A stretch of 64,000 nt of DNA from Nitrososphaerota archaeon (GCA_027339745.1 DAHWNW010000002.1:55725-119724), one strand, 5' to 3'. Shown: positions 50,469-63,683, counted from the stretch's first letter. Numbers and translations: made by a program. Notes: generated by a model not told the origin, from the sequence alone.

Positions 50469-50780
50469 TCAGCGCTTCTTGACATACAGATAACCTCCCT
50501 CCTCCCTTACGTCGTAAAGGGGCTCGTCAGGGAGGGGCTCGTCGAATATCCCCTTCCCCGTCTTGAGGTCCCAAACCGTCCCATGCCCGGCGCAGGTGAC
50601 CTCCGTGTCCACCAGGGTCCCCTCAGAGAGGTCCCACTCTTCATGCGTGCAGTAGGCCCCAATCCCATAGTACTTCCCGTCGACGTTGGCGATGAGGATA
50701 GACTCCCCCCCGACCTCTACGGTCAGCATCGAATCAGGCGGGACCTTCGAGGCTTCGACGGCTTTCGCGAAGTCAGCCAT
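50469..50780 (-). CDS. Rieske [2Fe-2S] domain ferredoxin-like protein
   Basis: 'YCTHEEW' (CxH) and 'CAGHGTVW' (CxxH) about 20 aa apart. Confidence 0.8.
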   Translation of the reverse strand: MADFAKAVEASKVPPDSMLTVEVGGESILIANVDGKYYGIGAYCTHEEWDLSEGTLVDTEVTCAGHGTVWDLKTGKGIFDEPLPDEPLYDVREEGGYLYVKKR

Positions 50781-50967: not shown

Positions 50968-51675
50968 TCAGTCTGGCCTTGGGGCGGGGGCGGTCATGGC
51001 TTCTTCGAGCTCCTTCAGGTCCTTCAGCGAGTCGACGAACGTCCACTCACCATAATATGGGTAGGAGAGTAGCGCCCCGTAGGTGACTAGTTTGGGGAAG
51101 GTCTCCCTCTCTATGTCCCCCTTGTCAGGCAGGTTCTTCGCGATCCTTGGCCCGTTGAGGACATAGACCCCGCCGTTGATCCATACGTCAGGGAAGGCCG
51201 GCTTCTCGTCGAACCCTCTGATCATCTTGAGCTTGTCTATCTTCACCACGCCGAATCTTGACCGGTAAGGGACCACGAGCATGGAGGCTGAAACCCCGCC
51301 GGCCCCGCCGTAGTCGTCGATCATCCTCTTCAACGGGAGGTCGGTGACGATGTCCCCGTTGGTGACCACGAAGGTCTCTTCGGACGGGTACTTCGCTATA
51401 GCTTTCTTGATCCCGCCGCCTGTCCCGAGTGGCTCGGCCTCCACGGAGTAGTCCACGGCGACCCCTTCGAAGCTCGCCCCGAAGTGCTCCCTCAGCCTCT
51501 CCCACTTGTAGCCGCAGGCGAAGGTCACAGCGTCGACGCCTCCCTCCTTGACCAGCCACTGGATTTGGTACTCGGCGATCGGCTTGCCGTTGACAGGTAT
51601 CAGGGCCTTAGGCTTGTCGTCTGTCAGGGGTCGCAGTCGCATCCCCAGGCCGCCGCTGAGAATGATCGCCCTCAT
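50968..51675 (-). CDS. Sugar-1-phosphate nucleotidyltransferase
   Basis: 'MRAIILSGGLGMRLRPLTDDKPKALIPV' signature. ATG at 51673-51675; the longer track ORF prefix is Arg/Gly/His-rich. Confidence 0.8.
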   Translation of the reverse strand: MRAIILSGGLGMRLRPLTDDKPKALIPVNGKPIAEYQIQWLVKEGGVDAVTFACGYKWERLREHFGASFEGVAVDYSVEAEPLGTGGGIKKAIAKYPSEETFVVTNGDIVTDLPLKRMIDDYGGAGGVSASMLVVPYRSRFGVVKIDKLKMIRGFDEKPAFPDVWINGGVYVLNGPRIAKNLPDKGDIERETFPKLVTYGALLSYPYYGEWTFVDSLKDLKELEEAMTAPAPRPD

Positions 51676-51743: not shown

Positions 51744-52148
51744 CTACAACGTCACGTTGAGGGAGCCGACGAGAGAGACAGGGACGTCCGTAGCGGTGGT
51801 CGTGAAGACAGTGGCGGTGTATGCCCCCGACGGCACCGTGGGGGACACGGCCACGAAACACTGCACCTCCTGGCCTGCCGAGAATGAACAAGAGGCTACG
51901 TTCCAATAGACGACCTGGCCGGCATGGTTGGTCAAGCCAAGGTAGACGAACGAGGTGAAGGACGTGGCGTAGGTGCTGGTGTAGTTCACCATCACCCCCT
52001 GGTAGCTGCCGATTGTGACCTGCTTCATCCCTGACTGTGAAATCGCGTTGGTGAGGTAGTCTGGGGCCGCCGCGCTGCTGAGAGGCGCCATTGAGACCAG
52101 GAGCAAGCAGACAGCCAGCAGGAACAAACCGGGCAGGTGCGACCTCAA
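51744..52148 (-). CDS. Small secreted protein homologous to the C-terminal domain of the 992-aa surface protein
   Basis: Signal peptide 'MRSHLPGLFLLAVCLLLVSMAPLSSAAA'. The C-terminal about 68 aa align without gaps to the end of the 53084-56062 product. TATA-like 'TTATATAC' lies about 25-30 nt upstream. Confidence 0.6.
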   Translation of the reverse strand: MRSHLPGLFLLAVCLLLVSMAPLSSAAAPDYLTNAISQSGMKQVTIGSYQGVMVNYTSTYATSFTSFVYLGLTNHAGQVVYWNVASCSFSAGQEVQCFVAVSPTVPSGAYTATVFTTTATDVPVSLVGSLNVTL

Positions 52149-52323: not shown

Positions 52324-53079
52324 TTACGAGATCTTCCTGACTAAAATTGCTAGCTCTAGGACTAGGGTTATCGCTGCGAGTACGGCGACTACCAAGACAT
52401 ACGTCTGGGTAGCCGAGATGGCGCTGCCCGAGGGCAACGAAGACTGGATGCTGTTGACCGTTGTCTGGATGCTCCCCACCGTGGAGGTAAGGCCGTTGAT
52501 GTTGCTGAGGATGGTGCCAACGTTGGTGCTGATTGTCCCCACAGTAGAGGAGATTGTCCCCACCGCAGAGGAGACGGTGCCCAACGTCGATGTGATGGCG
52601 GCAAGGTCGTTCATTATCGTCTGCTGGTTCGCCAGCACCTTGTTCAGGGTGGCGTTGACCTGCAGGAGCGCTGCGGTCTCGTTGAACGATGATGACGCCG
52701 GTGCAGTGTATGTGAAGGTGGTTGTACCCGTCGCTCCGTATGAATCGAGGGCCGTGATTGTGTAAGTCCCGCTGATCCAGGCCGACGTTCCGCCGACAGC
52801 CGTCGAATAGGTGAACGAGCCGCTTGAGACGGTCACGCTCGCAATGTCGACTGTCTGGCCTGATGGGTTCTTTACGGTGAGACCCACCTGGTCGGGTTGG
52901 GTCGGTGCGGGGCTTATGGTGCCGGAGATCGTGTAGGCCTGCGAGCCGCTGTATGAGGCGCCGGCCGCTGGGCTGGTGAACGTTATGCTACCAGCAGCGG
53001 TGGCGATCATAGGCGAAAGCGCAAGGACCAGCGCGATCGAGACTGCGGCGATTGCTGGGAGTGTCTTCATGGTGGCCAC
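52324..53079 (-). CDS. SlaB-like S-layer stalk candidate: signal peptide, beta domain, heptad coiled coil, C-terminal TM anchor
   Basis: 'MATMKTLPAIAAVSIALVLALSPMIATAAG' signal, about 110-aa Ser/Thr-rich domain, about 12 consecutive heptads, and C-terminal 'YVLVVAVLAAITLVLELAILVRK'. Starts 4 nt after the upstream gene. Confidence 0.6.
   Translation of the reverse strand: MATMKTLPAIAAVSIALVLALSPMIATAAGSITFTSPAAGASYSGSQAYTISGTISPAPTQPDQVGLTVKNPSGQTVDIASVTVSSGSFTYSTAVGGTSAWISGTYTITALDSYGATGTTTFTYTAPASSSFNETAALLQVNATLNKVLANQQTIMNDLAAITSTLGTVSSAVGTISSTVGTISTNVGTILSNINGLTSTVGSIQTTVNSIQSSLPSGSAISATQTYVLVVAVLAAITLVLELAILVRKIS
52445..52600 (-). repeat. Tandem 21-bp coding repeats (7-residue xVGTISS units)
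   Basis: For example, GATTGTCCCCACAGTAGAGGA followed by GATTGTCCCCACCGCAGAGGA on the plus strand, encoding TLGTVSS/AVGTISS/TVGTIST/NVGTILS/NINGLTS/TVGSIQT/TVNSIQS. Confidence 0.8.
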
Positions 53080-53083
53080 CCGA

Positions 53084-56062
53084 TTAGACGGTGACGGAGA
53101 TTGATGTAGATACTGATACGGGCAGGTTACCCGTGGTGAAGACGAAGATGCTCACAGAGTAGGTGCCGCTCGCGAGGCCTACCGGCTCCGCGATGAACAC
53201 CGACTGCGTCACACCTGCCCCGACTGTGAGGCTCCCTGTCCCGATGCCCACCGTCTGGCCGGCGCCGTTCTTATAGACGGCGAAGACCACGACGCTCTGA
53301 GCGGTCGGGTTCAGGTTGGTGTACGACGCGCTGATGCCTGAGAACGAACCTATCGTCGCTGATTGTGGGGTGCCTGAGACCACGAAGGACTGTGCGAACG
53401 GGACGGTCACGTGGACGGTCAGCGTTTGGCTGCTGTTCACGTTGCCCGCTAGGTCTGCCGCGCTCAGTGCGATGCTCCAGTTCCCGGTCGTGAGACCGGA
53501 GATGGTGACACCGTACGTCACGCTGTGCCCGACGTTATTGGTGCCGGACACGCTGACCGACAGGGTCTGCGTGGCTGAGGTCTGGATGTTGGTCGCCACT
53601 GCGCTGACGCTGGATGAGTTGAGGTCACCCAGACTGTCGGTGATCGTGGCGGTTACCGTCGCTGGCGAGGAGATGTTAGCGTTGGGGACCGTCACGAAGT
53701 TGACGCTCGGAGCGCTCGTGTCGACGAGCACCGAGTAAGTCCCTGTCTGTGCGGTGTTCCCATTGCTGTCGGTGGCGTTGAACGATATGGTGTGCAGACC
53801 CGCGCCAATGTTGACCGCGATTGCCCAAGTGACCTGGTTCGCCGTCTCTGACGAGCAACTCGACAGAGTCCCTGCAGTGTAGCAGACCGACGCGATGGTC
53901 GCTGCTGCCACGCCGGTGGTCGGATAACCGATCGAGGCGTTCGCGCTGCCGTGGAATACGACAGGCGTGCTATTTGCATAGATCACGCCGGACATTGGAA
54001 GCGGTGAGCTGACACCTATTGTTGGATTCGCGCTGACCACGCCGATGGTCGTTTCACCGGAGACTGCCTGCCCTGCGACCACGCCAGTAGCGGTGATCTT
54101 GGCGGTCCCTAGTGTCGACGGAGCGGTGTAGATTACCGCACCGAAGGACGACCCTGTGGTGGAGTGGCCTGCAGTGATGTAGACGTTTGTCGCTGAGAGG
54201 AGACCCGTAGACGCCGCCAGGTTCACCTGGAGCGTGTTGGCATTCGCGGCGAGCGTCACATCGTTCCCGTAGGCATCTACCAGGGTTACGTCGAGGTAGA
54301 GCGTCCCTGAGGAGACGGTGTTGGTCGCTGGGCCGCTGAAGACCGGCGGGTTCCCTGACGCGTAGTAGTAGGCGTTAACCTTGAACGAGGCCGCGGGGCC
54401 TGCTGCTGTTGTTGCCTGCGGTACTGTCCCGGTTACGTTGGCTAGGTCGTGGGTCGGCGCGGCGTAGGTGGGCGCGGTCGCGTTCATCGTGAACGTGACT
54501 TCGGCGCCTTCCAGCGTGTCGACCTTGAAGGAGGTTTGGACCATCCCTGAGCTGTTGGTGTCTAGGGTGATGTATTGGAGTCCGTTGGAGAAGGTACCCA
54601 CGTAGGCACCGTCACCCAGCGTCACTGCGCCGGTTCCTGGCAAGTCCAGGGCGATGTTCACTGGAACACCCTGCTGGACTGTAGGGAGCGTGGCGTAGAC
54701 GCTGATTGAAGAGCCCGCCGTTGGAGCGGCGTTGCTGACGGCCGGGGTGGGCGACGTCGCTGAGAAGGTCCCTGTAGTCGCTGTCCCGCTGTTACCGGCT
54801 ATTGTAAAGGCGGTAGCTCCCGCCCCATAAGTTCCGCTTATGGTGGCGCTGAACTGACCGACAGAACCATAGACGCCGGACTGGAAGTAGTTGTACGGGA
54901 GGTCCCCGCTGACCGCGCTGCCGGTGCCGTATGGCGTGGCGATGCACGCGGCGTTCGTTGTGCAGCTGACGGTTGAGGGGAGGTTGGTGGTGTCGAAGAC
55001 GCCGCTTGCCGAGAGGGCGGTCAAGGAGACCGAGCTGACGACGAGGTTGGCTGTGTTGAAAGCAATCGAGTTGCCGAACTTGTCGGCGATCGAATAGGTG
55101 CCGCTCGCGGCTGCGAGTTCAGCACCGGTGAAGGTAGTGTGGGTCGTTGGCGAGGTGTTTGTGGTAGTCCCTTGGGTGCTGAGGTAGTTGCTGGATTCGC
55201 CGCTTATGAGGAATGTTACCTCTGAGGGCGCACCAGGTCCTGTAGCTATACTGCTCGGGGCTGGCGTGATTGCGGTGCTGGTCCCGGCTGACGCCTTTAT
55301 GGCTGAGGGGCCATCGGCTACCGTGTCAGTCGGCTGGAATGTCGTGCTTGCGACACCTCCGTTCGCGCTAGCTGCAGTCACCCCCGTTGTGGGAGAGACT
55401 GTGCCGTAGGTGGACGTCACCGCCCACTCAATCGGCACGCCAGCGTTGCCGAGGTTGTTCGTTGTGGTGAGGGTCACCGTTGGGTTGCATGCGGGCGTAC
55501 CTGCTGTGTAGGTCCCGGTCACGCAAGAGTCGGTGGCACCGTATGAGATTGCGAGAGCCGCTGAAGCGCCGACGGAGTACAGCTTCTGGGTCGGTCCTGC
55601 GTAGTACGCGGCCGAAGAGCCGTCCTGAACCGTCGTCGTCACCGTCCCGGTTATCGCGTTGGCGGTAGACGGAGCGGGGGCTGTCGCGATGCTGAAGAAG
55701 TCAAATGTGGTGACGGATGCCCCCGGCGAGAGCGCAAGCGTGCAAGACACGCTAGACGAGGTCGAGTGGCAGCCATAGTCTGAAGTTTCGTAGTTAGCTG
55801 TCGAGAATGTCCATCCCGACGGCGCTGTGATCGTCAAGGCCGTGAGAGCGTAGGCGTTGCTGCTCGGGTTCGACACCGTTATCGCCTCCGAGGCAGAGCC
55901 AGACACTACGTTCTGACTAAGTGTGACAGTTGGGGGAGAGGCGTTCGCGGCGCTCACCGGCGTCACCAAGGGCACCAGGATGAGTAGAGCCGAAAACGCT
56001 AGGAGTGAGAGTAGAAGTCCTGAGCTAAATTTTCTTTGATACGCATTCGTAGGCGTATACAT
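53084..56062 (-). CDS. SlaA-like large secreted surface (S-layer candidate) protein, no membrane anchor
   Basis: Signal peptide 'FSSGLLLSLLAFSALLILVPLVTPVSA'. 992 aa rich in Thr/Ser/Ala/Gly/Val with many N-x-S/T sites and no C-terminal TM. Immediately upstream of the anchored coiled-coil protein. Confidence 0.6.
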   Translation of the reverse strand: MYTPTNAYQRKFSSGLLLSLLAFSALLILVPLVTPVSAANASPPTVTLSQNVVSGSASEAITVSNPSSNAYALTALTITAPSGWTFSTANYETSDYGCHSTSSSVSCTLALSPGASVTTFDFFSIATAPAPSTANAITGTVTTTVQDGSSAAYYAGPTQKLYSVGASAALAISYGATDSCVTGTYTAGTPACNPTVTLTTTNNLGNAGVPIEWAVTSTYGTVSPTTGVTAASANGGVASTTFQPTDTVADGPSAIKASAGTSTAITPAPSSIATGPGAPSEVTFLISGESSNYLSTQGTTTNTSPTTHTTFTGAELAAASGTYSIADKFGNSIAFNTANLVVSSVSLTALSASGVFDTTNLPSTVSCTTNAACIATPYGTGSAVSGDLPYNYFQSGVYGSVGQFSATISGTYGAGATAFTIAGNSGTATTGTFSATSPTPAVSNAAPTAGSSISVYATLPTVQQGVPVNIALDLPGTGAVTLGDGAYVGTFSNGLQYITLDTNSSGMVQTSFKVDTLEGAEVTFTMNATAPTYAAPTHDLANVTGTVPQATTAAGPAASFKVNAYYYASGNPPVFSGPATNTVSSGTLYLDVTLVDAYGNDVTLAANANTLQVNLAASTGLLSATNVYITAGHSTTGSSFGAVIYTAPSTLGTAKITATGVVAGQAVSGETTIGVVSANPTIGVSSPLPMSGVIYANSTPVVFHGSANASIGYPTTGVAAATIASVCYTAGTLSSCSSETANQVTWAIAVNIGAGLHTISFNATDSNGNTAQTGTYSVLVDTSAPSVNFVTVPNANISSPATVTATITDSLGDLNSSSVSAVATNIQTSATQTLSVSVSGTNNVGHSVTYGVTISGLTTGNWSIALSAADLAGNVNSSQTLTVHVTVPFAQSFVVSGTPQSATIGSFSGISASYTNLNPTAQSVVVFAVYKNGAGQTVGIGTGSLTVGAGVTQSVFIAEPVGLASGTYSVSIFVFTTGNLPVSVSTSISVTV

Positions 56063-56089
56063 TTATTTTCAGGGTTGCGGCCAGGATTC

Positions 56090-56098
56090 TATATATAA
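56090..56098 (-). promoter_or_regulatory. TATA box (TTATATATA on the minus strand) for the 992-aa surface protein gene
   Basis: Centred about 32 nt upstream of the ATG at 56060-56062 and preceded by an A/T-rich stretch. Consistent with a short-leader or leaderless strong promoter. Confidence 0.55.
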
Positions 56099-56566
56099 CC
56101 GTAGTGGACAAATGGTCTACTTTCGCGCAGACTATAGGAGAAAAGCGCCGCCCTACGCTCTTTCGAGGAATAGGAGGCAGAACCGAACGAATCGAGCGGC
56201 CAGAAGAGAGGAACGCCGGTATTGGCCGCTGCCGGCCGACCGCCTGGCTGCTGCGGTTCGCCAGGTTCGCCGTTTTATGCGGAACATGGGGTCCCCGGCT
56301 TGCCTTTGACCGATCCCCGGAAGATGGGCACTAGAGCCAGCACCCAATCAGGTTAAAACACATCCAACATCAGGATGGCAGGCATATTGCTGGCCGCGAA
56401 TCTGCTCAGGAGCGAAGGTGAATTCACCCGGATTGCAGGCGGGAAGGGAATCGGTGCCGCGGGCAGGACGTCGCTACTTGAGAGAGGGCGCCCTGAACCC
56501 CCTCGGCGGGCCAGCCTCAAGGTGAGCTAGACGGCTTCGCCATTCTACGCGGGCTACATCCTCTAC

Positions 56567-58354
56567 TTGGCCTCGGTTCTTGTTCCTGGGTACGGCATTG
56601 GGGAACTCGCCGGAAGATGGAAGGGAGGGGACGACCTCATCCACCGGATCGGGCATTCACTCGGCTACGGGCTAGCTGTCGACACGGCGGTCTTGGTCAT
56701 AGAGACCACCGGTTTCAGATTTGGTGGAATCGCCCTCGTGGGGCTGGACGTCTACTCTCTCTATTTCCTCGTCGCCCTCGGAGCCGTCATGTACCTGGTG
56801 GCGGTCGTGCGAAGGCGGAGGGTCGCAGGGTTGCCTAGGGTCGACAAGGAGTCGATAGGCGTCCTTGGATGCGTGGCGGTGATCGGCGCCATCGCTTGGC
56901 TCTATTTCGTGTCCTATCCGATCTTTCCTCGGGACTACAACCCCGACTTCATAGCCTTGGTGGGCTCCCCTCGCGAGCTGATCAGTGGCACCCTGACCTC
57001 CATCCCCAGGTTAGTGCTTTACGGCGCGGGATACTACCAGACCGCCGCTGCGTTCCTAGCCGTCGGCTCTACGGGGATTCAGACAGCCCAGGTCTCGATG
57101 TCCATCCTGGCAACCCTGTCCCCCACCTTGGTGTATGCGACGACGCTCAGTCTCACTGGCGACAAGCGAAGCGGGTTGTTGGTCACGGCGATCTACTCCC
57201 TGTCAGGGAGCATCTGGACGCAGATGGTGTTCGTGGATGGCCTTTATCCGAACTTCGTCGGGACTCTGCTCGAGCTCGTCCTCTTGGTCACGTTCATCGA
57301 CCTCGCCAAGAACCCCCGCAGCCGTTCGCTCTGGCTGCTTTCGGCGCCAGTCGTCCTAGCCGCATACTTTTCGCACTATTCGGTTCTCTCTGTCTTCGGT
57401 ACATTCGCGATCCTGTCGTTGGCCCTTGCGATGATGAGGAGCCCGCAATTCAAAGGGACGGCTGTCGCAACCATCGCATTCCTTATCCCCGGAGCTCTTG
57501 GCGCCCTGGCGTTCAGAAGGCAGCTCGACTTGGCGCTGGTCATCTCTTACACCAGCGGCGCCCCGCAGCCGCTGACCACCTATCTTTCGAAAGCGCTCAG
57601 CTTTCTGCCGTCTATAGCCTACCTTGCATTTGACGTGAGGAATGACATCGGGTTTCTGGCCGCCATTACGTTGTTGGCCTTCTCGTTGTACAGAGGGTAC
57701 AAGCGCAAGGATTACGCCATTCTCCCCTTCGCCATCTGGTTCTTCGCTTTGCTGATCGCCTCCCCACAGGACTACGCTGCTTGGAGGTTCGAGCTCGAAG
57801 CGATAATGCCCTTGACGATACTAGCCGGGTACGGGCTGAACTCGATGATACCGAGCACAAGGGCTCGCAAACAGGCGAGATTGAGGAAAGGCGACCCCTA
57901 CAAGTTCGCCGCCGTGATGTTCGTACTCCTCTTCCTGACCCCGATAGTTGCTACTGGATGGGCGTCATCGTTCACGCAGAGCCTCGCGCTAGAGTCTGGC
58001 AAACAAGCGACGGTACAGTCACAGGTCAACGCGACCATGACCTGGCTCGAGGAGAACACACCCCCTTCCTCGTCTTTTCTTTCGGTCACAGACCCGACTT
58101 TCTTGTACTCGGCGCTTCAGATAGGGCATAACTGCACCTATGAGTACATGGGGAACGAGACCCAGGCTATCTCCTATGCCAGGTCCAACGGCCTCTCCTA
58201 CATCATCGTCACCAAGCACGATGTGTTCTTCAGCCAGGTCTTGCAGCCGGCCAACGACTCAGCCCCGTATCTCCCATGGTTCACGTACAAACCTACCGCT
58301 GGCGTGACTTTGGTCTATTACAATCCTAACGTCCGGGTGTTCCAAGTGTCCTGA
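56567..58354 (+). CDS. GT-C-like polytopic membrane glycosyltransferase candidate (AglB/STT3- or PMT/ArnT-like architecture, no WWDYG)
   Basis: About a dozen hydrophobic helices, then a soluble C-domain of about 130 aa. The first loop has 'FPRDYNPDF'. After the last TM, 'WLEENTPPSSSFLSVTDPTF' occupies the place of 'W(L/I)xxNTPxxxxVxSWWDYG'. TTG start. Confidence 0.55.
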   Translation: MASVLVPGYGIGELAGRWKGGDDLIHRIGHSLGYGLAVDTAVLVIETTGFRFGGIALVGLDVYSLYFLVALGAVMYLVAVVRRRRVAGLPRVDKESIGVLGCVAVIGAIAWLYFVSYPIFPRDYNPDFIALVGSPRELISGTLTSIPRLVLYGAGYYQTAAAFLAVGSTGIQTAQVSMSILATLSPTLVYATTLSLTGDKRSGLLVTAIYSLSGSIWTQMVFVDGLYPNFVGTLLELVLLVTFIDLAKNPRSRSLWLLSAPVVLAAYFSHYSVLSVFGTFAILSLALAMMRSPQFKGTAVATIAFLIPGALGALAFRRQLDLALVISYTSGAPQPLTTYLSKALSFLPSIAYLAFDVRNDIGFLAAITLLAFSLYRGYKRKDYAILPFAIWFFALLIASPQDYAAWRFELEAIMPLTILAGYGLNSMIPSTRARKQARLRKGDPYKFAAVMFVLLFLTPIVATGWASSFTQSLALESGKQATVQSQVNATMTWLEENTPPSSSFLSVTDPTFLYSALQIGHNCTYEYMGNETQAISYARSNGLSYIIVTKHDVFFSQVLQPANDSAPYLPWFTYKPTAGVTLVYYNPNVRVFQVS

Positions 58355-58522
58355 ACCCCGCACGATGGGGCGGTGCCTCCGCACGTACGCCGCAAGCCCC
58401 CGGGGCATCTGGGGAGCGCTTGTTTGGGAGCATGGATGATTGATGCGGAAGAGGCAAGCGACATCGAATGACCTCTTTGCCAAGACATTCTCTTCGTCGG
58501 TGCTCCTTGGCCCGAGTCCTGT

Positions 58523-59110
58523 CTACGAGATGGTGATCTTCCCTGAAATCTGCGTACCAATTATAGAAAAGGTGGATGTGCCGGCGGTCTGGAAGACCCA
58601 AGTGAACCCCTGCCCAGGAGCAAGCGCGAAGTCCCCGACCCCCCCTACGCTCAGCGTCACGCTTGTTGTCCCGGTGTTGACCCACTCCACCGGGGTGACC
58701 GAATGGAGGGCTGCGGCCTCGGTATCATTGAATCCTTGCTGCGAGACCCCTATGACGACTTTGATCGGCGTGTAAATCCCTACGGCGTAGGCTGTCTTAC
58801 CTGACTCGAGCACCAGGCTGTGCTCAGGGGGGGTGACGTACCATTTGACCTGGGGGAAGGTGACAGTATACGGGCCTTGGGTCATAGTAGCGTTGTAGGG
58901 AGTAAGGACGCTGTTTCCATCCACAGTGGCCTGGACTCGGATTTCGGACGTCCCACCGCTCCCGTTCTCCAGGTACGCGTTCACCACGAGGGTCCCGGTG
59001 CCCGGACCCACAGAGGTGACCAATGCGTAGAACACGGCGGCTCCTACTATGACAATAGGCACCATGAAGAGAATCGTCCCGATCCTTCGGCGGCGTGATG
59101 CACCTTTCAA
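58523..59110 (-). CDS. N-terminally anchored extracytoplasmic protein (PEGA-like plus cupredoxin-like beta domains)
   Basis: 'RRRRIGTILFMVPIVIVGAAVFYALV' signal anchor, 'VQATVDGNSVLTPYNATMTQGPYTVTF' PEGA-like segment, and a C-terminal beta-rich domain with no obvious Cu ligands. Confidence 0.5.
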   Translation of the reverse strand: MKGASRRRRIGTILFMVPIVIVGAAVFYALVTSVGPGTGTLVVNAYLENGSGGTSEIRVQATVDGNSVLTPYNATMTQGPYTVTFPQVKWYVTPPEHSLVLESGKTAYAVGIYTPIKVVIGVSQQGFNDTEAAALHSVTPVEWVNTGTTSVTLSVGGVGDFALAPGQGFTWVFQTAGTSTFSIIGTQISGKITIS

Positions 59111-59738
59111 ATGGAATTCGGCCTCGCGAGACGTCCCCTTTGGAACATGGTAAGCAGCTTTCCAGATACCCTTCCCGAACGCCAGAAAAACGTTATCGAA
59201 GAGGGTGGTCCTTCGGGGTCACCCGACATGCTGGGTCTTTTGCGCGGCTGTAGAGGTTCGAAGGGGCGAAGAATCACCGTGAGCGGCATAGCTCAGAAGG
59301 CAGATGCCCTCCGGCGGTTCTCTGCCGAGCACTGAGCCGTATGTAGTCGCGGCATTCTGGACGCGCCCGCAGGTCAGTTGGACCAGGTCGCGTTGTCTGC
59401 TGCCTTAGGAATTGACTCAGTTTCGATGGCAGAACAACATATGCTTCTTCGGCTGTCGCAGACAGGCGCTTGGGAACGCGACTTCCATCTGGTATCTGGG
59501 CGAGGTATCTGGGGTAGAGCTACCCTCCCAATGCGGTGTCGGGGATACTGCTGGACGATTCAACGCTCTTCGTTTTGCATCCAGTTGCCGCGTACGCCGC
59601 CCTTCGGTGTAACCTCCAATGCGAGCACAAGATTAGGAGCGGGGACGGAACTCAACCGCCTTGGTAGCGGACCTCTTGTGACGCTTGTCTGCAGTTCCCG
59701 GCCAAGGGAGATATATGGGCAGAGGAGAGCGCCCCTTC

Positions 59739-60641
59739 ATGGACGTCACAGTGCTCATACCAGCTCACAATGAGGAGGGCACGATAGCGAAGGTCATCGT
59801 AAAGGCCAAGGAGCACTCGAACCGAGTGGTAGTCTGTGACGACGGGTCCACCGACATGACCGGGAGGATCGCTGAGTCTCTGGGAGCCGAAGTAATCAGA
59901 ACCTCGCACAACCTTGGCTACGGAGCCGCACTTTCGACCCTTTTGACAAGGGCCAAGGAAATAGGAGCGGGCGTCGTGGTGACGCTCGACGGAGACGGGC
60001 AGCACGACCCCGACGAGATCCCCATAGTGATAGAGCCTTTGCTCAAAGGAGAGGCAGACATAGTGATAGGCTCGCGGTTTCTGGCCGGTGACCGCAAGAT
60101 GCCGAGGTATAGGACCGTGGGGATAAAGGCGATCACAGGCCTCTCCAACAGTGTGGGAGACCTCAAGGTGTCAGACGCACAGTCGGGGTTCAGGGCGTAC
60201 GCCCTCGACGCAATCTCATCGGTCTTACCTACTGAGCTCGGCATGGGCGCGAGCACCGAGATCCTTCTTAAAGCAAGCCGGGCAAGCTTAAGGATTGTCG
60301 AGGTCCCCATCAACGTGTCATACGAGAAAGGGGCAAGCAGGAACCCTGTCTATCACGGGGTTGAAGTCGTCTTTGCGACCATCAAGCACGTATCGATACT
60401 CCATCCGCTGATCGTCTATGGTATCCCAGGGTTCGCGTTCATGTTGTACGGGTTGTATCTAGGATCGAACGCTCTACGTATCTACGAAGACGTCCACAAG
60501 GTGATAATCGGCACAACGCTAATTTCGATGGGAGCCATCCTGGTCGGGCTCATATTGGCCATTACAGCGCTGATAATCTGGATCATGATATCAGTGGTGC
60601 GGAGCCCCCTGTATCAAGCCGGGCGCACGACGCCTGCTTAG
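59739..60641 (+). CDS. GT2 dolichyl-phosphate sugar synthase-like glycosyltransferase (DPM1/GtrB-like) with C-terminal TM helices
   Basis: 'VTVLIPAHNEEGTI', 'VVVCDDGSTDMT', 'VVTLDGDGQHDP', 'GFRAY', then two hydrophobic helices at the C-terminus. ATG at 59739; alternative starts at 59685 and 59715. Confidence 0.8.
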   Translation: MDVTVLIPAHNEEGTIAKVIVKAKEHSNRVVVCDDGSTDMTGRIAESLGAEVIRTSHNLGYGAALSTLLTRAKEIGAGVVVTLDGDGQHDPDEIPIVIEPLLKGEADIVIGSRFLAGDRKMPRYRTVGIKAITGLSNSVGDLKVSDAQSGFRAYALDAISSVLPTELGMGASTEILLKASRASLRIVEVPINVSYEKGASRNPVYHGVEVVFATIKHVSILHPLIVYGIPGFAFMLYGLYLGSNALRIYEDVHKVIIGTTLISMGAILVGLILAITALIIWIMISVVRSPLYQAGRTTPA

Positions 60642-60994: not shown

Positions 60995-62299
60995 GTGCGT
61001 GCGACCGACCCCGAGCCAGGCTCGCACGTCAAGAGCGTCACGCTCCTCGCCACCATTGGAACCGTCGCCGAGTATTATGACTTCGCGCTCGCGGGTGCCT
61101 GCGCAGCGCTTGTCTGGCCATTCGTTTTCTTCCCCTCGTCTAGCTCCGCGGCAGGCTTCGCTCTCTCCTTCGGGACCTACGGCTCCGCCTTGCTCTTCCA
61201 ACCAGTTGGCGCCGCATTGTTCGGCCACCTGGGGGACCGGCGAGGAAGGAAGCCGTCGCTTGTCCTGACCCTCTCCCTGATGGGTATAGGGTCCCTCGGG
61301 CTCGGACTGGTCCCCAGCTATGAGGCTATTGGGGCGCTCGCGCCGCTGCTCGTGGTGGCCATGCGCGTCCTTCAGGGAATCGGATTCGGAGGAGAGCTGT
61401 CTGGGTCCGCGACTTGGGTGGCCGAAGCTGCCGCTGACACCAATAGGAGGTCGTTCTGGACCGGGTTCCTTTCTGTGTCGCGCACCGCTGGTGCCCTGCT
61501 CTCCTTCAGTATGTTCTACGCTGTCTCGGCTGTACTGCCTCGGGCAGAGTTTCTCGGGTCCGGGTGGAGGCTCCTCTTCATAGGGGGGGCGGCGGCGCTC
61601 CTTGTGGGCGTCGTCGTAAGGTACAGATTTACGAGGGACATTTTGTACTTGGAGGCGAAGGCCAGGAACGCACTGGTGAAGGCGCCTGTCATCTCCGCAG
61701 CGAAGAAGGACTGGGGGACCATACTTGCCCTGGGGGTGTCCACCACTGGGTTCCTGTCCATCATCCTCGTGATGCTCCAGTCCTTCTCTCTGAACTATCT
61801 GACGAAGGTGGGGGTCGGCGTCACCTTCGCTGCCGAACTCTTGGTGTTGGGGAGGACGCCTGAGCTTGTCGTAACTCCTGCGGCCACGCTCCTCGCGGAC
61901 AGATTTGGGAGAAAGGCCACCCTCATCGCAGGAGGGGTAGCATGTCTTATTCCCATCCTACTGTTCTATCCTCTCCTTCACACATCTTCAGTGGGGCCGG
62001 TAGTGCTAGGATTCGCCCTCCTCGGGATCAGCTCATCGTTTGGCTATGCGAGCGCGCCCGCCCTCTTCGCGGAGTCCTTTCCGACAAGCCATAGGTTCTC
62101 AGGGGTCGGGCTCGCCTACAACATCCCGGTTCTGGTGACGGGGTCGCTGACGACCCTCGTCATACCACTTTACATCGCCGCTTTTGGGGGCGCAGTTGGC
62201 GCCGCCAATTATGTGGCAATCACTATATTCGGGATCACCGCAGTCTCCATCGTGGCAGGACTGGTAGTGCACGAAACGAGGACCGCCGATATGCACTGA
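60995..62299 (+). CDS. MFS transporter (metabolite:H+ symporter-like)
   Basis: About 12 TM helices and 'FGHLGDRRGRKP' loop 2-3 motif. GTG start. Confidence 0.85.
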   Translation: MRATDPEPGSHVKSVTLLATIGTVAEYYDFALAGACAALVWPFVFFPSSSSAAGFALSFGTYGSALLFQPVGAALFGHLGDRRGRKPSLVLTLSLMGIGSLGLGLVPSYEAIGALAPLLVVAMRVLQGIGFGGELSGSATWVAEAAADTNRRSFWTGFLSVSRTAGALLSFSMFYAVSAVLPRAEFLGSGWRLLFIGGAAALLVGVVVRYRFTRDILYLEAKARNALVKAPVISAAKKDWGTILALGVSTTGFLSIILVMLQSFSLNYLTKVGVGVTFAAELLVLGRTPELVVTPAATLLADRFGRKATLIAGGVACLIPILLFYPLLHTSSVGPVVLGFALLGISSSFGYASAPALFAESFPTSHRFSGVGLAYNIPVLVTGSLTTLVIPLYIAAFGGAVGAANYVAITIFGITAVSIVAGLVVHETRTADMH

Positions 62300-62351: not shown

Positions 62352-63683
62352 TCATCGCGACAGGGTCACCCTGCTCAACACGGGTCTGGACTTGGACCAA
62401 AACTCGTCCGGAGTCCTATAGGAAGTCTCGACCACCACGTCGGTCTCCATTGTCGATTCTAGGTATTGCTTCAGGCGCTGGAGCGCAGAAGGGCTCGGCG
62501 CTTCGTCGGGGGAAGTCTTGAGCAGGAACCTGCCTACATCGAGCTGTATCAGCTGATAGTCTGCCAGCCCAAGACTGGATTCAGCCCAGTCAGCAACCGT
62601 CAAGGGCGAAACCTGCTCCCGGCGACTGTTCATAAGCCAGTCTGCCTTCCGCCCCAGCACCTTCCTGATCCTCATCAGGTTCGAGCCACAAGGGCAAGCT
62701 TCTCCGTCTGCCATTTCCACGACATCTCCCAGCCGGTACCTGATGAACGGCATCAGGGGGTTATGGAGCGAGGTTACCACGAGCTCGCCCGTTTCGCCTG
62801 GTCCGACTGGCTCGTCGTCCTTGAGGACTTCGGGGAAGATGAAGTCCTCATTGAAGTGGAGTCCCCTGTGAGCCGTGCAGACTGCACCCATCGGACCGAC
62901 TTCGGCTGCGCCATACCCCCAGAAGATCTCTGAACCATATAGCCCTTCTAACTCTCTGGCGCAGGTTTGGGTGAATACTTCGTTCGTTAGGACGAGCCCT
63001 CTGGGATGGATGCTTTCGCCTCTGGCCTTTAGAAATCGCCCAATCCGCCTGAGGTTTGACGGCCTGCATATCACGAAATCTGGGTTCATGCTCCTCAGGA
63101 CTTCGGCGTCCCGCTCGACATCCCAATTTGAACTCAACAACGGCTTCAGAAAGGGAAGGGGCCGCCCAAGCACTCCGAGCGGGAAGGAGAGTGAGAACGT
63201 ATCTCGCTTCAGCCGCCCATCCCTGTCTTGTCCAGGGCGCCAATAGGAGGTCGGGGGCCAGATTGATACTATTCGATGCCACGGCCTCGCTCCATAGTGG
63301 AGCAGGTGCCTCACCGTCATCGCTGTAGTCACTGCATGGTACTCCCGAGAGAAAGCAAGCCTAATCCTGGCCCCGCTGGTGCCGGTGGTCGACGAGTAAG
63401 ATCCTAAAGTGTTGATGAGGTTCTGCGATATCATCGCCTCTCCATTGCGTTCCACATCGCTCCTTTCGAGGATTGGTAGCGTCCTGAGGTCTTCGAGGGA
63501 CCTGAAGCCGAAGCCCTCAAGGGTCGAGGCGCGAGCGAACCTACGCCTGTAGAAAGGTACATTTTGGTAAGCCAAGGCGATTACTCGCCTCAGCTTCTTG
63601 TACTGGAGCTCCCTCAGCTCTTCTCTGGAGATTCTCGAGTTTCTGAACGCTTCGATGTAGGTCTTCGCGTCTTCCACTAACAA
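62352..63683 (-). CDS. Phenylacetate-CoA ligase / coenzyme F390 synthetase-like adenylate-forming enzyme
   Basis: PaaK-like layout: 'SSTTGTSGARI' P-loop-type AMP motif, 'GYGAAEVGP', 'YRLGDV'. Confidence 0.7.
   Translation of the reverse strand: MLVEDAKTYIEAFRNSRISREELRELQYKKLRRVIALAYQNVPFYRRRFARASTLEGFGFRSLEDLRTLPILERSDVERNGEAMISQNLINTLGSYSSTTGTSGARIRLAFSREYHAVTTAMTVRHLLHYGARPWHRIVSIWPPTSYWRPGQDRDGRLKRDTFSLSFPLGVLGRPLPFLKPLLSSNWDVERDAEVLRSMNPDFVICRPSNLRRIGRFLKARGESIHPRGLVLTNEVFTQTCARELEGLYGSEIFWGYGAAEVGPMGAVCTAHRGLHFNEDFIFPEVLKDDEPVGPGETGELVVTSLHNPLMPFIRYRLGDVVEMADGEACPCGSNLMRIRKVLGRKADWLMNSRREQVSPLTVADWAESSLGLADYQLIQLDVGRFLLKTSPDEAPSPSALQRLKQYLESTMETDVVVETSYRTPDEFWSKSRPVLSRVTLSR

What the first reader, a model, noticed from the sequence alone, without database searches (positions are those of the whole stretch)
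56567..60641. Putative dolichol-dependent protein glycosylation module next to the S-layer genes, with an AglB/PMT-like GT-C enzyme lacking WWDYG
Divergent from the S-layer gene is a 595-aa protein (56567-58354) with about a dozen TM helices and a soluble C-terminal domain of about 130 aa, which is the GT-C layout. Its first extracytoplasmic loop carries acidic residues in 'FPRDYNPDF' (DNA 56921-56950), reminiscent of the DxD/'DPYF' loop of STT3/AglB. Directly after the last TM it reads 'WLEENTPPSSSFLSVTDPTFLYS' (DNA about 58042-58110). In STT3/AglB/PglB alignments as I remember them, this position is 'W(L/I)xxNTPxxxxVxSWWDYG'. The catalytic WWDYG is therefore replaced by VTDPT(F).
Downstream lies a GT2 enzyme of the DPM1/GtrB type with C-terminal TM helices (59739-60641). 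That type makes Dol-P/Und-P-linked monosaccharides, the donor class used by GT-C enzymes. An anchored PEGA-like protein (58523-59110) lies between the two. A sugar-1-P nucleotidyltransferase (50968-51675) and uppS (24289-25071) are also in the window.
Together this reads as a lipid-linked single-sugar transfer system acting on the adjacent Ser/Thr-rich surface proteins. It could be an O-glycosylation-type or glycan-decorating activity. To my knowledge no enzyme for archaeal protein O-glycosylation has been identified, so a non-WWDYG GT-C next to its likely substrate is a good candidate.
Basis: inference. Interest (0 to 1): 0.7.

Follow-up and report, generated by a model that had tools for sequence, protein, structure and literature searches.

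The report
AglB-like glycosyltransferase tied to S-layer genes
Next to the putative cell-surface (S-layer) protein genes of an uncultured soil/acid-habitat archaeon sits a membrane enzyme that descends from the universal N-glycosylation enzyme AglB/STT3 but has lost every motif that reads the N-x-S/T signal; it is a concrete, still unproven candidate for a different kind of surface-protein glycosylation, possibly the unidentified archaeal O-glycosylation.

Summary
ORF 56567-58354 encodes a 595-aa polytopic membrane protein. Its confident AlphaFold model (pLDDT 84) matches only GT-C class-A glycosyltransferases (STT3, AglB, PglB, DPY19, ArnT, ALG12).

Its about 110-aa C-terminal domain is homologous to the AglB core domain (hhalign 94%, E 9e-8), and [ST]D[WP][RT]F falls where AglB has WWDYG.

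Across 91 family members only D127, H270 and R407 are invariant. The OST-specific second DxD, the EL5 Glu, WWDYG and DK/MI are all missing, and no Pfam STT3 hit exists. It is therefore a divergent AglB relative, not an oligosaccharyltransferase by the family's defining features.

The family is small (240 representatives) and sits mainly in uncultured Nitrososphaerota (group I.1c, Gagatemarchaeaceae-like). In eight loci, down to about 25% identity and in varied orientations, the gene abuts an SlaA/SlaB-like pair. It evolves as fast as the SlaA-like protein.

A DPMS/ArnC-type GT2 is adjacent in four loci, and a Wzx/AglR-type flippase in three.

Best reading: an S-layer-dedicated extracytoplasmic glycosyltransferase using dolichol-phosphate sugars. 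O-linked, N-glycan-decorating and non-canonical N-linked transfer cannot be told apart. I could not test whether a canonical AglB exists elsewhere in the genome. Verdict: a new variant of a known kind.

The parts
56567..58354 (+). 595-aa GT-C class-A membrane glycosyltransferase, AglB/STT3-like architecture, lacking WWDYG. The true start is possibly upstream (ATC 56555), because the frame encodes the conserved N-terminus back to TAG 56528-56530.
   Evidence: ORF. No Pfam, NCBIfam or PDB sequence hit. AF2 pLDDT 84. The top 18 Foldseek hits are all GT-C_A, E 5e-6 to 4e-4. Start-codon issue.
56924..56989 (+). Outer-face catalytic loop and helix, F120-G141. The family motif is [YF]PIFPxxxSxD127[FY]xxH131x6L138xxG141. 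D127 (56945-56947) is the putative catalytic Asp, equivalent to OST EL1 Asp (PglB D56, Stt3 D47).
   Evidence: D127 is 91/91; F120, P121 and G141 are nearly invariant. Outside by the positive-inside rule. Greedy hhalign places D127 on PglB D56 (low confidence).
57239..57256 (+). G225-L-Y-P-N-F230, a nearly invariant short outer loop at the position of the OST second DxD/DxE motif (PglB GYYDTD), but without acidic residues.
   Evidence: G 88/91, Y 82/91, N 84/91, and no D/E. Aligned to PglB 151-156 (low confidence).
57374..57376 (+). H270, invariant His in the short outer loop S-H-[YF]-[TS].
   Evidence: 91/91. Outer loop by topology.
57785..57787 (+). R407, invariant Arg at the outer end of the third-from-last TM helix (AWRF...P415...GYG). 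It is equivalent to PglB R375 and yeast Stt3 R404 (lipid-phosphate binding).
   Evidence: 91/91. hhalign to PglB 371-401 and to Stt3 R404. Same position relative to EL5-like loop / TM12 / TM13.
58019..58354 (+). C-terminal extracytoplasmic alpha/beta domain (residues 485-595), homologous to the AglB central core domain (Pfam PF22627 type). The DK/MI-motif insertion is absent.
   Evidence: hhalign A2 vs AglB-core alignment: 94.4%, E 9.2e-8, profile columns 486-593. PDB profile hits 3vgp and 3vu0. Foldseek 3vu0_A prob 1.0.
58088..58105 (+). T508-D-P-T-F-L513, the loop occupying the WWDYG position. The family consensus is [ST]-D-[WP]-[RT]-F, and D509 is D/E in 69/91.
58523..59110 (-). 195-aa N-terminally anchored, beta-rich extracytoplasmic protein (p195). 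It is conserved beside the GT-C in only 3 loci, and its function is unknown.
   Evidence: No Pfam hit at E<=5. AF2 pLDDT 41, unusable.
59739..60641 (+). GT2 polyprenyl-phosphate sugar synthase (DPMS/AglJ/ArnC/GtrB class) with two C-terminal TM segments. It is the putative source of the Dol-P-sugar donor.
   Evidence: PF00535 2.5e-24. AglJ 1.3e-38, PpgS 1.5e-36, Dol-P-hexose transferase 9e-26, all below the equivalog cutoffs. PDB 5mlz 4.3e-15 and ArnC. DDGSTD and DGDGQHDP motifs and TMs.
53084..56062 (-). 992-aa secreted SlaA-like putative S-layer protein (30% Ser+Thr, 4% charged, 12 N-x-S/T sequons), divergently transcribed from the GT-C. It is the putative acceptor.
   Evidence: Orthologues beside the GT-C in L001, L005, L008, L009, L010, L014. 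No PDB or strong Pfam hit.
52324..53079 (-). 251-aa SlaB-like putative S-layer anchor: signal peptide, beta domain, coiled coil, C-terminal TM.
   Evidence: NCBIfam SlaB NF040788 3.4e-8 over residues 125-251. TM at 219-251. Coiled-coil-type PDB hits only.
51744..52148 (-). 134-aa secreted protein, a stand-alone copy of the C-terminal beta domain of the SlaA-like protein.
   Evidence: 34% identity to SlaA 896-992. Syntenic in L001 and L010.
50968..51675 (-). Sugar-1-phosphate nucleotidylyltransferase, syntenic with the S-layer block in 5 loci.
   Evidence: PF00483 2.2e-28..
56063..56566 (.). 504-bp divergent intergenic region between the SlaA-like gene and the GT-C gene. An A/T-rich 'tatatataac' element lies about 30 bp upstream of the SlaA-like start.
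   Evidence: Sequence read directly. Promoter function not tested.
62352..63683 (-). 443-aa PaaK/F390-synthetase-like adenylating enzyme, a recurrent neighbour in 4 loci (near GT4/GT2 genes in L001 and L003). A possible sugar-modifying accessory.
   Evidence: NCBIfam DVU_1553-family/PaaK 6e-44 and 2e-31, below cutoffs. Synteny.

Best explanation
The 595-aa protein is a catalytically competent GT-C class-A glycosyltransferase that descends from the AglB/STT3 oligosaccharyltransferase lineage.

It keeps the generic GT-C machinery on the outer membrane face:
- a catalytic Asp (D127) at the head of a juxtamembrane helix;
- an invariant His (H270);
- a lipid-phosphate-binding Arg (R407) at the OST R375/R404 position;
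- the AglB-type core domain.

It has lost everything that makes an OST read N-x-S/T and bind a metal-pyrophosphate donor: the second DxD, the EL5 Glu, WWDYG and DK/MI.

It works outside the cytoplasmic membrane as the last step of a three-component pathway:
1. The cytoplasm-facing GT2 (59739-60641) loads a single sugar from a nucleotide sugar onto dolichol phosphate.
2. A flippase moves it outward. This is Wzx/AglR-type in relatives and unidentified in this window.
3. The GT-C transfers it to the co-encoded SlaA/SlaB-like surface proteins.

My committed guess for the acceptor is Ser/Thr hydroxyls of the S-layer proteins (O-glycosylation), because the remodelled but still conserved peptide-binding loop and the co-evolution with SlaA point to a protein acceptor.

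Shown: fold, homology, motif loss, synteny.
Inferred: donor, acceptor, linkage.
For: - Fold: all 18 significant Foldseek hits are GT-C_A enzymes, and the next hit has E 0.03, prob 0.13, from a model with pLDDT 84.
- AglB ancestry: the C-terminal domain matches the AglB core at hhalign 94%, E 9e-8. PDB profile hits are only 3vgp and 3vu0. It aligns with yeast Stt3 494-574, P 8e-4.
- Retained catalysis: D127, H270 and R407 are invariant in 91 sequences with 20% mean column identity. All lie on the outer face. R407 aligns to PglB R375 and D127 to D56.
- Lost OST features.
- Donor pathway: the GT2 is of DPMS/ArnC/AglJ type. It is adjacent to the GT-C in the window, L004, L009 and L011. A Wzx-type flippase is adjacent in L008, L009 and L011, and L011 reads flippase-GT2-GT-C with 63- and 22-bp gaps.
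- Acceptor: the GT-C abuts SlaA/SlaB-like genes in the window, L001, L005, L006, L008, L009, L010 and L014, in divergent, upstream and downstream arrangements.
- Rate coupling: GT-C identity to the window is 53/36/44/30%, tracking SlaA at 55/48/-/32%. The NTP-transferase is 87/72/82% and Rieske 87/85/88%.
- Three tandem GT-C paralogs precede the S-layer gene in L006.
- Precedent: the AglD-AglR-AglS pathway acts on the Haloferax S-layer glycoprotein (PMC3871713).
Against: - There is no biochemical or glycoproteomic evidence, and the organisms are uncultured.
- The S-layer identity of the neighbours rests on architecture and a weak SlaB hit.
- The GT2 is absent from the fetched flanks in about half the loci, and no flippase is recognisable in the window.
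- Known three-component GT-C enzymes mostly decorate glycans or lipids, not proteins (my own knowledge of these systems; I did not read a source for this).
- The residue equivalences in the TM part come from low-confidence alignments (E 0.2).
- Fast evolution could simply reflect surface exposure.
- Three of the 14 loci (L007, L011, L013) have no SlaA-like neighbour detectable by BLAST.
Confidence: 0.5

Rival explanations
1. N-glycan decoration, like AglS. The GT-C adds a terminal sugar from Dol-P-sugar onto N-glycans that a canonical AglB has already attached to the S-layer proteins, as AglD/AglR/AglS do in Haloferax volcanii.
For: - The gene logic is the same: GT2 Dol-P-sugar synthase, Wzx/AglR-type flippase and a GT-C.
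- The documented archaeal precedent acts on an S-layer glycoprotein (PMC3871713, PMC3892788).
- The SlaA-like protein has 12 N-x-S/T sequons.
- Most bacterial three-component systems modify glycans (my own knowledge; I did not read a source for this).
Against: - A glycan acceptor does not explain why an AglB-type peptide-binding core domain, with a remodelled but conserved loop (D509 in 76%), is retained.
- It also does not explain why the enzyme diverges in step with SlaA rather than with the sugar-pathway genes.
- Sequon density (1.2 per 100 aa) is no higher than composition predicts.
Confidence: 0.25
2. Non-canonical N-oligosaccharyltransferase. This is a second, AglB-independent OST that attaches a glycan to Asn of the S-layer protein through a recognition mode not based on WWDYG. 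In the extreme case it is the lineage's only OST.
For: - AglB ancestry and overall OST architecture.
- AglB paralogs exist in other archaea, for example the three in A. fulgidus (PMC3703281).
- Haloferax has an AglB-independent N-glycosylation whose OST is 'currently unidentified' (PMC3892788).
- I could not show that a canonical AglB exists in these genomes.
Against: - All residues that OSTs use for amide activation, metal binding and sequon reading are missing family-wide: the second DxD, the EL5 Glu, WWDYG and DK/MI.
- The two cultured Nitrososphaerota examined each carry a single canonical WWDYG AglB (PMC12153357), so one is expected here too.
- Adjacency to a mono-sugar Dol-P synthase fits single-sugar transfer better than en-bloc glycan transfer.
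Confidence: 0.1
3. A lipid or polysaccharide acceptor, or a non-catalytic role. The GT-C builds or decorates a membrane glycolipid or lipoglycan that the S-layer anchor docks to, or it acts as a scaffold or chaperone for S-layer assembly.
For: - ArnT and ALG12 (lipid and lipid-linked glycan acceptors) are among the fold hits.
- GT4 genes, a PaaK-like adenylating enzyme and Phosphodiest/Sulfatase genes recur nearby, as in polysaccharide clusters.
- One weak relative fuses a PMT_2 domain to a phosphodiesterase/sulfatase domain.
Against: - Three invariant outer-face polar residues argue for catalysis, not scaffolding.
- The specific, orientation-independent adjacency to SlaA/SlaB genes, and the AglB-type core domain, are more easily explained by a protein substrate.
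Confidence: 0.12

Closest known systems
AglB / STT3 / PglB oligosaccharyltransferases (GT66; Pfam PF02516 plus the AglB core domain PF22627)
   Same: - GT-C_A fold with top structural matches.
- Length like the short AglBs.
- A long EL5-like loop followed by four TM helices.
- An Arg at the R375/R404 position.
- A homologous C-terminal core domain, including the 'WLxxNTP' helix and the terminal 'V(K/R)(I/V)F' strand.
   Different: - No PF02516 hit.
- WWDYG is replaced by [ST]D[WP][RT]F, and the DK/MI insertion is absent.
- The second DxD reads GLY[AP]NF.
- No conserved EL5 acid.
- Probably three extra N-terminal helices.
Haloferax volcanii AglD-AglR-AglS (Dol-P-mannose synthase, flippase, extracytoplasmic Dol-P-Man mannosyltransferase)
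   Same: The same three-part logic, and the same kind of target, an S-layer glycoprotein (PMC3871713). GT2, Wzx-type flippase and a polytopic transferase are found together in L009 and L011.
   Different: AglS adds to an N-linked glycan, whereas the acceptor here is unknown. No flippase was identified in the window.
Bacterial three-component periplasmic glycosylation systems (GtrA/GtrB/GtrC, CsbB/GtcA/YfhO, ArnC/ArnEF/ArnT)
   Same: A polyprenyl-phosphate GT2 with C-terminal TMs plus a GT-C acting outside the membrane. ArnC and ArnT are among the sequence and fold hits. One distant member hits Pfam YfhO weakly. The system descriptions are from my own knowledge.
   Different: - Those systems modify O-antigen, teichoic acids or lipid A.
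- This enzyme has an OST-type soluble domain and is tied to protein genes.
- The flippase type is Wzx-like rather than GtrA-like.
Protein O-mannosyltransferases of the GT-C fold (PMT/GT39, TMTC, TMEM260)
   Same: A GT-C using Dol-P-sugar to glycosylate Ser/Thr of secreted proteins is the proposed chemistry. Five of 55 distant members hit Pfam PMT_2 (1.6e-6) and one hits TMEM260-like.
   Different: - No hit for the window protein.
- No MIR or TPR domains.
- A different soluble domain (AglB core).
- PMT structures rank far lower in Foldseek (Pmt4 E 0.5).
Pfam DUF6541 (PF20176), an uncharacterised membrane-protein family
   Same: The 28%-identical family member P0018 passes its threshold (34 bits against a cutoff of 29), and one further distant member matches at E<=0.01.
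   Different: The window protein and 15 of its 16 closest relatives (all but P0018) do not match. No literature exists on DUF6541.

Membership tests
GT-C class-A glycosyltransferase superfamily | Polytopic fold in which a conserved N-terminal TM module carries a long first outer loop with juxtamembrane helices | tested here: met
   The top 18 Foldseek hits are all GT-C_A (E 5e-6 to 4e-4, prob 1.0, TMq 0.39-0.50), and nothing else is significant. DSSP shows TM 94-116, then helices 126-140 and 154-166, then TM 171-197.
GT-C class-A glycosyltransferase superfamily | Conserved catalytic Asp/Glu on the outer face at the start of the first outer loop | tested here: met
   D127 is invariant in 91/91. 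It lies on the outer side by the positive-inside rule. It aligns to PglB D56 in a low-confidence hhalign.
AglB/STT3/PglB oligosaccharyltransferase (GT66) | WWDYG motif in the soluble domain (binds the +2 Ser/Thr of the sequon) | tested here: not met
   Absent from the protein, from all 100 full-length family members scanned, and from all six frames of the window. The aligned position reads T-D-P-T-F.
AglB/STT3/PglB oligosaccharyltransferase (GT66) | DK or MI motif in the core domain | tested here: not met
   The family has a gap where the AglB DK/MI-bearing insertion lies in the profile-profile alignment. The motif definition is from my own knowledge.
AglB/STT3/PglB oligosaccharyltransferase (GT66) | Second DxD/DxE/DxH motif and the EL5 TIXE/SVSE Glu (metal ligands) | tested here: not met
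   The aligned position is GLY[AP]NF with no acid. No column in 316-359 is >=70% D/E. Only positions 96, 127 and 509 are acidic-rich. The positional equivalence comes from a low-confidence alignment.
AglB/STT3/PglB oligosaccharyltransferase (GT66) | Homologous C-terminal central-core domain | tested here: met
   hhalign 94.4%, E 9.2e-8 over profile columns 486-593. PDB hits 3vgp and 3vu0. Foldseek 3vu0_A.
AglB/STT3/PglB oligosaccharyltransferase (GT66) | Match to Pfam STT3 (PF02516) or NCBIfam AglB models | tested here: not met
   No hit at E<=0.1 for the window protein, at E<=1 for 17 close members, or at E<=0.01 for 55 distant members.
Three-component extracytoplasmic glycosylation system (GT2 + flippase + GT-C) | Polyprenyl-phosphate sugar synthase GT2 encoded with the GT-C | tested here: met
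   The window GT2 lies 1.4 kb downstream. It is also adjacent in L004, L009 and L011, and within 10 kb in L001 and L003. Its class is supported.
Three-component extracytoplasmic glycosylation system (GT2 + flippase + GT-C) | Dedicated flippase (GtrA- or Wzx-type) in the locus | tested here: inconclusive
   None was recognised in the window. The adjacent MFS is a metabolite/H+ symporter type, and 10 of the larger ORFs elsewhere in the window that I scanned are unrelated; the smaller ORFs were not scanned. A Wzx/Polysacc_synt gene sits directly beside the GT-C in L008, L009 and L011.
Protein O-mannosyltransferase PMT (GT39) | Pfam PMT/PMT_2 match, loop-1 DE motif, MIR domains | tested here: not met
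   No PMT or PMT_2 hit for the window protein or its close relatives. Only 5 of 55 distant members hit PMT_2. There is no MIR domain, and the soluble domain is AglB-core-like.
SlaA/SlaB-type S-layer (for the neighbouring genes) | Large secreted lattice protein followed by a stalk protein with a beta domain, coiled coil and C-terminal TM anchor | tested here: inconclusive
   The architecture fits. The NCBIfam SlaB hit is 3.4e-8, far below its cutoff. There is no PDB sequence hit to solved S-layer proteins. Expression and lattice formation are not testable here.

The most novel reading that the evidence does not exclude
This family is the long-sought archaeal protein O-glycosyltransferase. On this reading an AglB paralog was converted, by loss of the sequon-reading and metal-binding motifs, into an S-layer-dedicated enzyme that transfers single sugars from dolichol phosphate onto Ser/Thr of the SlaA/SlaB-like proteins. 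That would show that N- and O-glycosylation machineries can arise from the same OST scaffold.
Probability: 0.25. Interest if true: 0.85.

Novelty: new variant of a known kind. Interest (0 to 1): 0.62.

Why it matters
Archaeal O-glycosylation has been known for decades on S-layer glycoproteins, yet its pathway is still called elusive (PMC8241124, PMC11607397). An AglB-independent glycan transferase in Haloferax also remains unidentified (PMC3892788).

This finding gives a defined, conserved and uncharacterised enzyme family with an obvious candidate substrate encoded next door, a likely donor pathway, and three invariant residues to mutate. That makes the hypothesis directly testable by heterologous co-expression.

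Independently of the acceptor, it documents an OST-derived GT-C that has shed every OST-specific motif while keeping the core domain. This bears on how acceptor specificity evolves in the STT3 superfamily.

It also gives a first handle on cell-envelope biogenesis in the abundant but uncultured group I.1c Thaumarchaeota of acidic soils.

Tried and rejected
1. Direct family assignment failed. Pfam, NCBIfam, and PDB phmmer/hmmsearch with the single protein and the 17-member profile gave nothing.
2. A search for a canonical AglB found no WWDYG-type motif in the window or in 270 kb of related loci. The tools gave no way to scan the rest of these genomes, so the 'only AglB' scenario stays open.
3. 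The AfAglB-S1 C-terminal query returned only fragments. That was useful for the core-domain profile but not for a TM-domain profile.
4. The last large protein search, with the 91-member profile, mostly returned the same close family. It did not reveal taxonomy or bridges to STT3.
The narrower alignment gave 5 loci.
6. p195: the single-sequence AF2 model was unusable (pLDDT 41). There was no Pfam hit, including PEGA, at E<=5. It is not related to the second small-protein family that sits beside the GT-C elsewhere.
7. The organism carrying the flippase-GT2-GT-C operon on a 1.58-Mb contig could not be named.
8. C-mannosylation (DPY19-like) was rejected as unlikely, because the SlaA-like protein has 4 Trp and no WxxW.
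9. The MFS transporter next to the GT2 was considered as a flippase and rejected, because it is a metabolite/H+ symporter type.
10. uppS was rejected as part of the module. It is 32 kb away among unrelated genes.
I therefore could not measure spatial clustering of D127, H270 and R407, and relied on topology and alignments.

Full report
**Observation**

- a 595-aa ORF at 56567-58354 (+);
- a 195-aa ORF at 58523-59110 (-);
- a GT2 ORF at 59685/59739-60641 (+);
- upstream on the minus strand, a 992-aa ORF (53084-56062), a 251-aa ORF (52324-53079), a 134-aa ORF (51744-52148) and a nucleotidyltransferase (50968-51675).

The quoted peptide strings are at the stated DNA positions: F120-F128 = 56924-56950 and W493-S515 = 58043-58111.

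One detail differs. The frame upstream of the called TTG still encodes the family's conserved N-terminus (SPFYAGYILYL) back to a TAG at 56528-56530. So the true start is uncertain and the first helix is a little short.

**What the 595-aa protein is**

It has no hit in Pfam, NCBIfam or PDB by sequence.

Homologues are few:
- 18 were found in the 5.8-billion-protein word-indexed search, all hypothetical proteins of 'Nitrososphaerota/Thaumarchaeota archaeon' MAGs.
- 240 representatives at E<1e-3 were found in the exhaustive HMMER scan of 1.84 billion clusters.

An AlphaFold2 model built on 17 sequences is confident (pLDDT 84.4, pTM 0.86). Against the PDB, all 18 significant Foldseek matches are GT-C class-A enzymes (E 5e-6 to 4e-4, probability 1.0, TMq 0.39-0.50): STT3 of dog, yeast and human, A. 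fulgidus AglB, C. lari PglB, the DPY19 C-mannosyltransferase, ArnT and ALG12. The next hit is a transporter at E 0.03, probability 0.13. The GT-C assignment is therefore solid.

**Relation to AglB/STT3**

The soluble C-terminal domain gives the specific link.
- A profile of 91 diverse family members (alignment A2) hits only two things in the PDB, both aligned end to end: the C-terminal globular domains of the short A. fulgidus AglBs, 3VGP (E 0.046) and 3VU0 (E 0.17).
- I entered yeast Stt3 and C. lari PglB from memory and verified them against 6C26_A (100%) and 3RCE_A (about 99%).
- hhalign then aligned family 485-552 to Stt3 494-574 (P 8e-4). It aligned the AWRF...P...GYG helix to PglB LRFTIYAVPVMALGFGY, with R407 on R375 (E 0.2).
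- I seeded a search with the 3VGP sequence printed. It returned AglB fragments carrying Pfam PF22627, which I aligned as A4.
- A2 against A4 gives 94.4% probability, E 9.2e-8, over the whole domain (profile columns 486-593).

In these alignments the family's [ST]-D-[WP]-[RT]-F (T508-D-P-T-F in the window) lies on WWDYG. The family has a gap where AglB carries the DK/MI-bearing insertion.

Distant members read WLRENTPEDCVVISIGRWEFMY or WISKNTENDSKILVISEWEYIY, grading toward the STT3 pattern. None of the 100 full-length members scanned has WWDYG.

**What is kept and what is lost**

Across A2 (mean column identity 20%) only D127, H270 and R407 are invariant. Nearly invariant positions are P118, F120, P121, G225, Y227, N229, W391, P415 and W493.
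- The outer-loop motif is [YF]PIFPxxxSxD127[FY]xxH131x6L138xxG141.
- A positive-inside analysis puts D127, GLYPNF, H270 and the start of the R407 helix on the outer face. Basic residues are concentrated in the short inner loops.
- After a long EL5-like loop (316-359) come four TM helices. R407 is at the outer end of the third, exactly as for PglB R375.
- A greedy, low-confidence hhalign to PglB makes TM 94-116 the equivalent of OST TM1. It puts D127 on the catalytic D56 and GLYPNF on GYYDTD.
- The OST second DxD position has no acid, and no column of the EL5-like loop is acidic. The only other acid-rich columns are 96 and D509, the latter in the WWDYG-equivalent loop (D/E in 69/91).

The protein thus keeps the minimal GT-C catalytic set (Asp, His, phosphate-binding Arg) and the AglB core domain. 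It lacks every feature that defines an N-oligosaccharyltransferase.

Pfam agrees. There is no STT3 hit anywhere in the family. Distant members hit only other glycosyltransferase-type membrane families: PMT_2 in 5 of 55, DUF6541 in 2, and TMEM260-like, ALG9-like and YfhO in 1 each.

**Neighbourhood**

The GT2 is of the polyprenyl-phosphate sugar synthase class.
- Pfam: PF00535, 2.5e-24.
- NCBIfam: AglJ 1.3e-38, PpgS 1.5e-36, Dol-P-hexose transferase 9e-26, all below their equivalog cutoffs.
- Best PDB matches: P. furiosus Dol-P-Man synthase 5MLZ (4.3e-15) and ArnC.
- It has DDGSTD and DGDGQHDP motifs and two C-terminal TM segments.

The 992-aa protein has a signal peptide, 30% Ser+Thr, 4% charged residues and 12 sequons. 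The 251-aa protein has a signal peptide, a beta domain, a coiled coil and a C-terminal TM, and hits NCBIfam SlaB at 3.4e-8. Neither matches a solved structure by sequence. 'S-layer' is therefore an inference from architecture.

**Conservation of the association**

I examined 14 distinct loci (window plus L001-L015, with L002 and L012 duplicating L001 and L011) from exact-protein look-ups and a scan of GTDB species genomes. I compared them by BLAST and clustering.

The GT-C abuts an SlaA-like/SlaB-like pair in eight of them:
- the window and L001 (divergent);
- L005, L010 and L014 (GT-C upstream, co-directional);
- L006 (three tandem GT-C paralogs, then an 896-aa protein ending in the SlaB anchor);
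- L008 and L009 (GT-C downstream).

L010 reads GT-C - p195 - SlaA - SlaB - p134 - NTP-transferase - Rieske. GT-C identity to the window in these loci falls to about 25-30%.

In the remaining loci:
- L003 and L004 end within 1 kb upstream of the gene.
- L015 has a 991-aa secreted DUF2341 protein next to it.
- L007, L011 and L013 show no SlaA-like neighbour.

Named carriers include Ca. Gagatemarchaeum stordalenia and several 'Thaumarchaeota archaeon' MAGs, which is the group I.1c lineage described in PMC10640624. That paper does not discuss S-layer or glycosylation genes.

The GT-C is the fastest-evolving gene of the block and tracks SlaA. Identities to the window are listed below.

| Gene | L001 | L010 | L006 | L005 |
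|---|---|---|---|---|
| GT-C | 53% | 36% | 44% | 30% |
| SlaA-like | 55% | 48% | - | 32% |
| NTP-transferase | 87% | 72% | 82% | - |
| Rieske | 87% | 85% | 88% | - |

**Donor pathway in relatives**

- The orthologous GT2 is adjacent to the GT-C in the window, L004 and L009, and within 10 kb in L001 and L003.
- A Wzx/AglR-type flippase (Polysacc_synt) lies directly upstream of the GT-C in L008 and L009.
- In the very distant member P0165 (L011) the order is flippase - GT2 - GT-C with 63- and 22-bp gaps.
- That is the three-component arrangement known from bacteria and, in archaea, from AglD-AglR-AglS, which add the last mannose to the Haloferax S-layer glycoprotein's N-glycan (PMC3871713, PMC3892788).
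- The window itself has no recognisable flippase.
- p195 is conserved in only three loci, has no Pfam match (including PEGA), and could not be modelled.

**Mechanism and alternatives**

The best-supported reading is an S-layer-dedicated extracytoplasmic glycosyltransferase. It would take a single sugar from dolichol phosphate, supplied by the GT2 and a flippase. D127 would act as catalytic base and R407/H270 would hold the lipid phosphate. The acceptor would be the SlaA/SlaB-like proteins.

I favour a protein Ser/Thr acceptor for three reasons:
- The AglB peptide-binding domain is retained with a remodelled but conserved loop.
- The enzyme co-diverges with SlaA.
- Paralogs multiply next to the S-layer gene.

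This step is inference. The rivals are AglS-like decoration of N-glycans, a non-canonical N-OST, and a lipid or polysaccharide acceptor.

No WWDYG protein is in the window or in 270 kb of related loci, and the rest of the genomes were out of reach. The two cultured ammonia-oxidising Nitrososphaerota examined each have one canonical WWDYG AglB (PMC12153357), so one is expected here.

**Novelty and score**

- The literature still describes archaeal O-glycosylation enzymes as unknown (PMC8241124, 2021; PMC11607397, 2024). My searches found no later identification and no paper on DUF6541.
- The system type (GT2 + flippase + GT-C) and the fold are known.
- What I believe is new is an OST-derived GT-C stripped of all OST motifs and genomically tied to S-layer genes. 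I rate this a new variant of a known kind.
- Interest is 0.62. It is a well-supported, testable candidate for an open question, but function is unproven and the hosts are uncultured.

Noticed in passing
L006:7940-13847 (MAG 'archaeon isolate YP1.bin45'): Three tandem paralogs of the GT-C (616, 622 and 614 aa; 42-43% identical to the window protein) lie directly upstream of an 896-aa surface protein that ends in the SlaB-type coiled coil and anchor. This suggests diversification of the enzyme alongside a fused SlaA/SlaB-like protein.
   Followed up: partly
L003:2420-3967, L006:6100-7635, L001:11867-13213; protein P0208: Alkaline-phosphatase-superfamily genes (Pfam Phosphodiest or Sulfatase) sit directly beside the GT-C in three relatives but not in the window. 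A weak relative (P0208, 782 aa) fuses a PMT_2 domain with Phosphodiest/Sulfatase domains. This may point to a phospho- or sulfo-modification step coupled to the transferase.
   Followed up: partly
window 51744-52148 (-): The 134-aa secreted protein is a stand-alone copy of the C-terminal beta domain of the SlaA-like protein (34% identity to residues 896-992). It is syntenic in L001 and L010, and its role is unknown.
   Followed up: partly
L004:2612-3286, L010:9198-9842, L007:11771-13177: A second small membrane-protein family lies immediately beside the GT-C in three loci. It has N-terminal TM helices and a beta-type ectodomain with a 'GGxxPYNF..W.D' motif, which looked PKD-like to me but had no Pfam hit. 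The L007 copy has two such domains joined by a poly-Ser/Thr linker of about 35 residues, a classic O-glycosylation-type sequence. It is unrelated to p195.
   Followed up: partly
window 56528-56569: The GT-C reading frame encodes conserved N-terminal residues upstream of the first ATG/GTG/TTG, right after a TAG stop. This implies a non-canonical start (possibly ATC at 56555), a recent truncation, or a sequencing error.
   Followed up: partly
window 62352-63683 (-) and 60995-62299 (+): A PaaK/F390-synthetase-like adenylating enzyme (443 aa) recurs near the glycosyltransferase genes in L001, L003 and L006. An MFS metabolite/H+ symporter recurs in L001. Neither has an obvious role in the proposed pathway.
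   Followed up: partly
window 28639-31365 (-): A 908-aa ORF has only a weak Pfam TRAP_beta (translocon-associated protein beta) match at residues 293-400 and no NCBIfam hit. It may be another large envelope or secretion-related protein.
   Followed up: no
L011:11746-13390: In the distant flippase-GT2-GT-C operon, the GT-C is followed by two DUF1616 membrane proteins instead of SlaA/SlaB-like genes. Two distant GT-C family members themselves gave weak DUF1616 hits.
   Followed up: no
window 50469-50780 (-) and 50968-51675 (-): A Rieske protein and the sugar-1-P nucleotidyltransferase stay linked to the S-layer block in 4-5 loci at 72-88% identity. They diverge far more slowly than the surface genes and the GT-C.
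   Followed up: yes
window 1-64000: ARAGORN found no tRNA genes in the whole 64-kb window. The G+C content is about 58-65% throughout.
   Followed up: no
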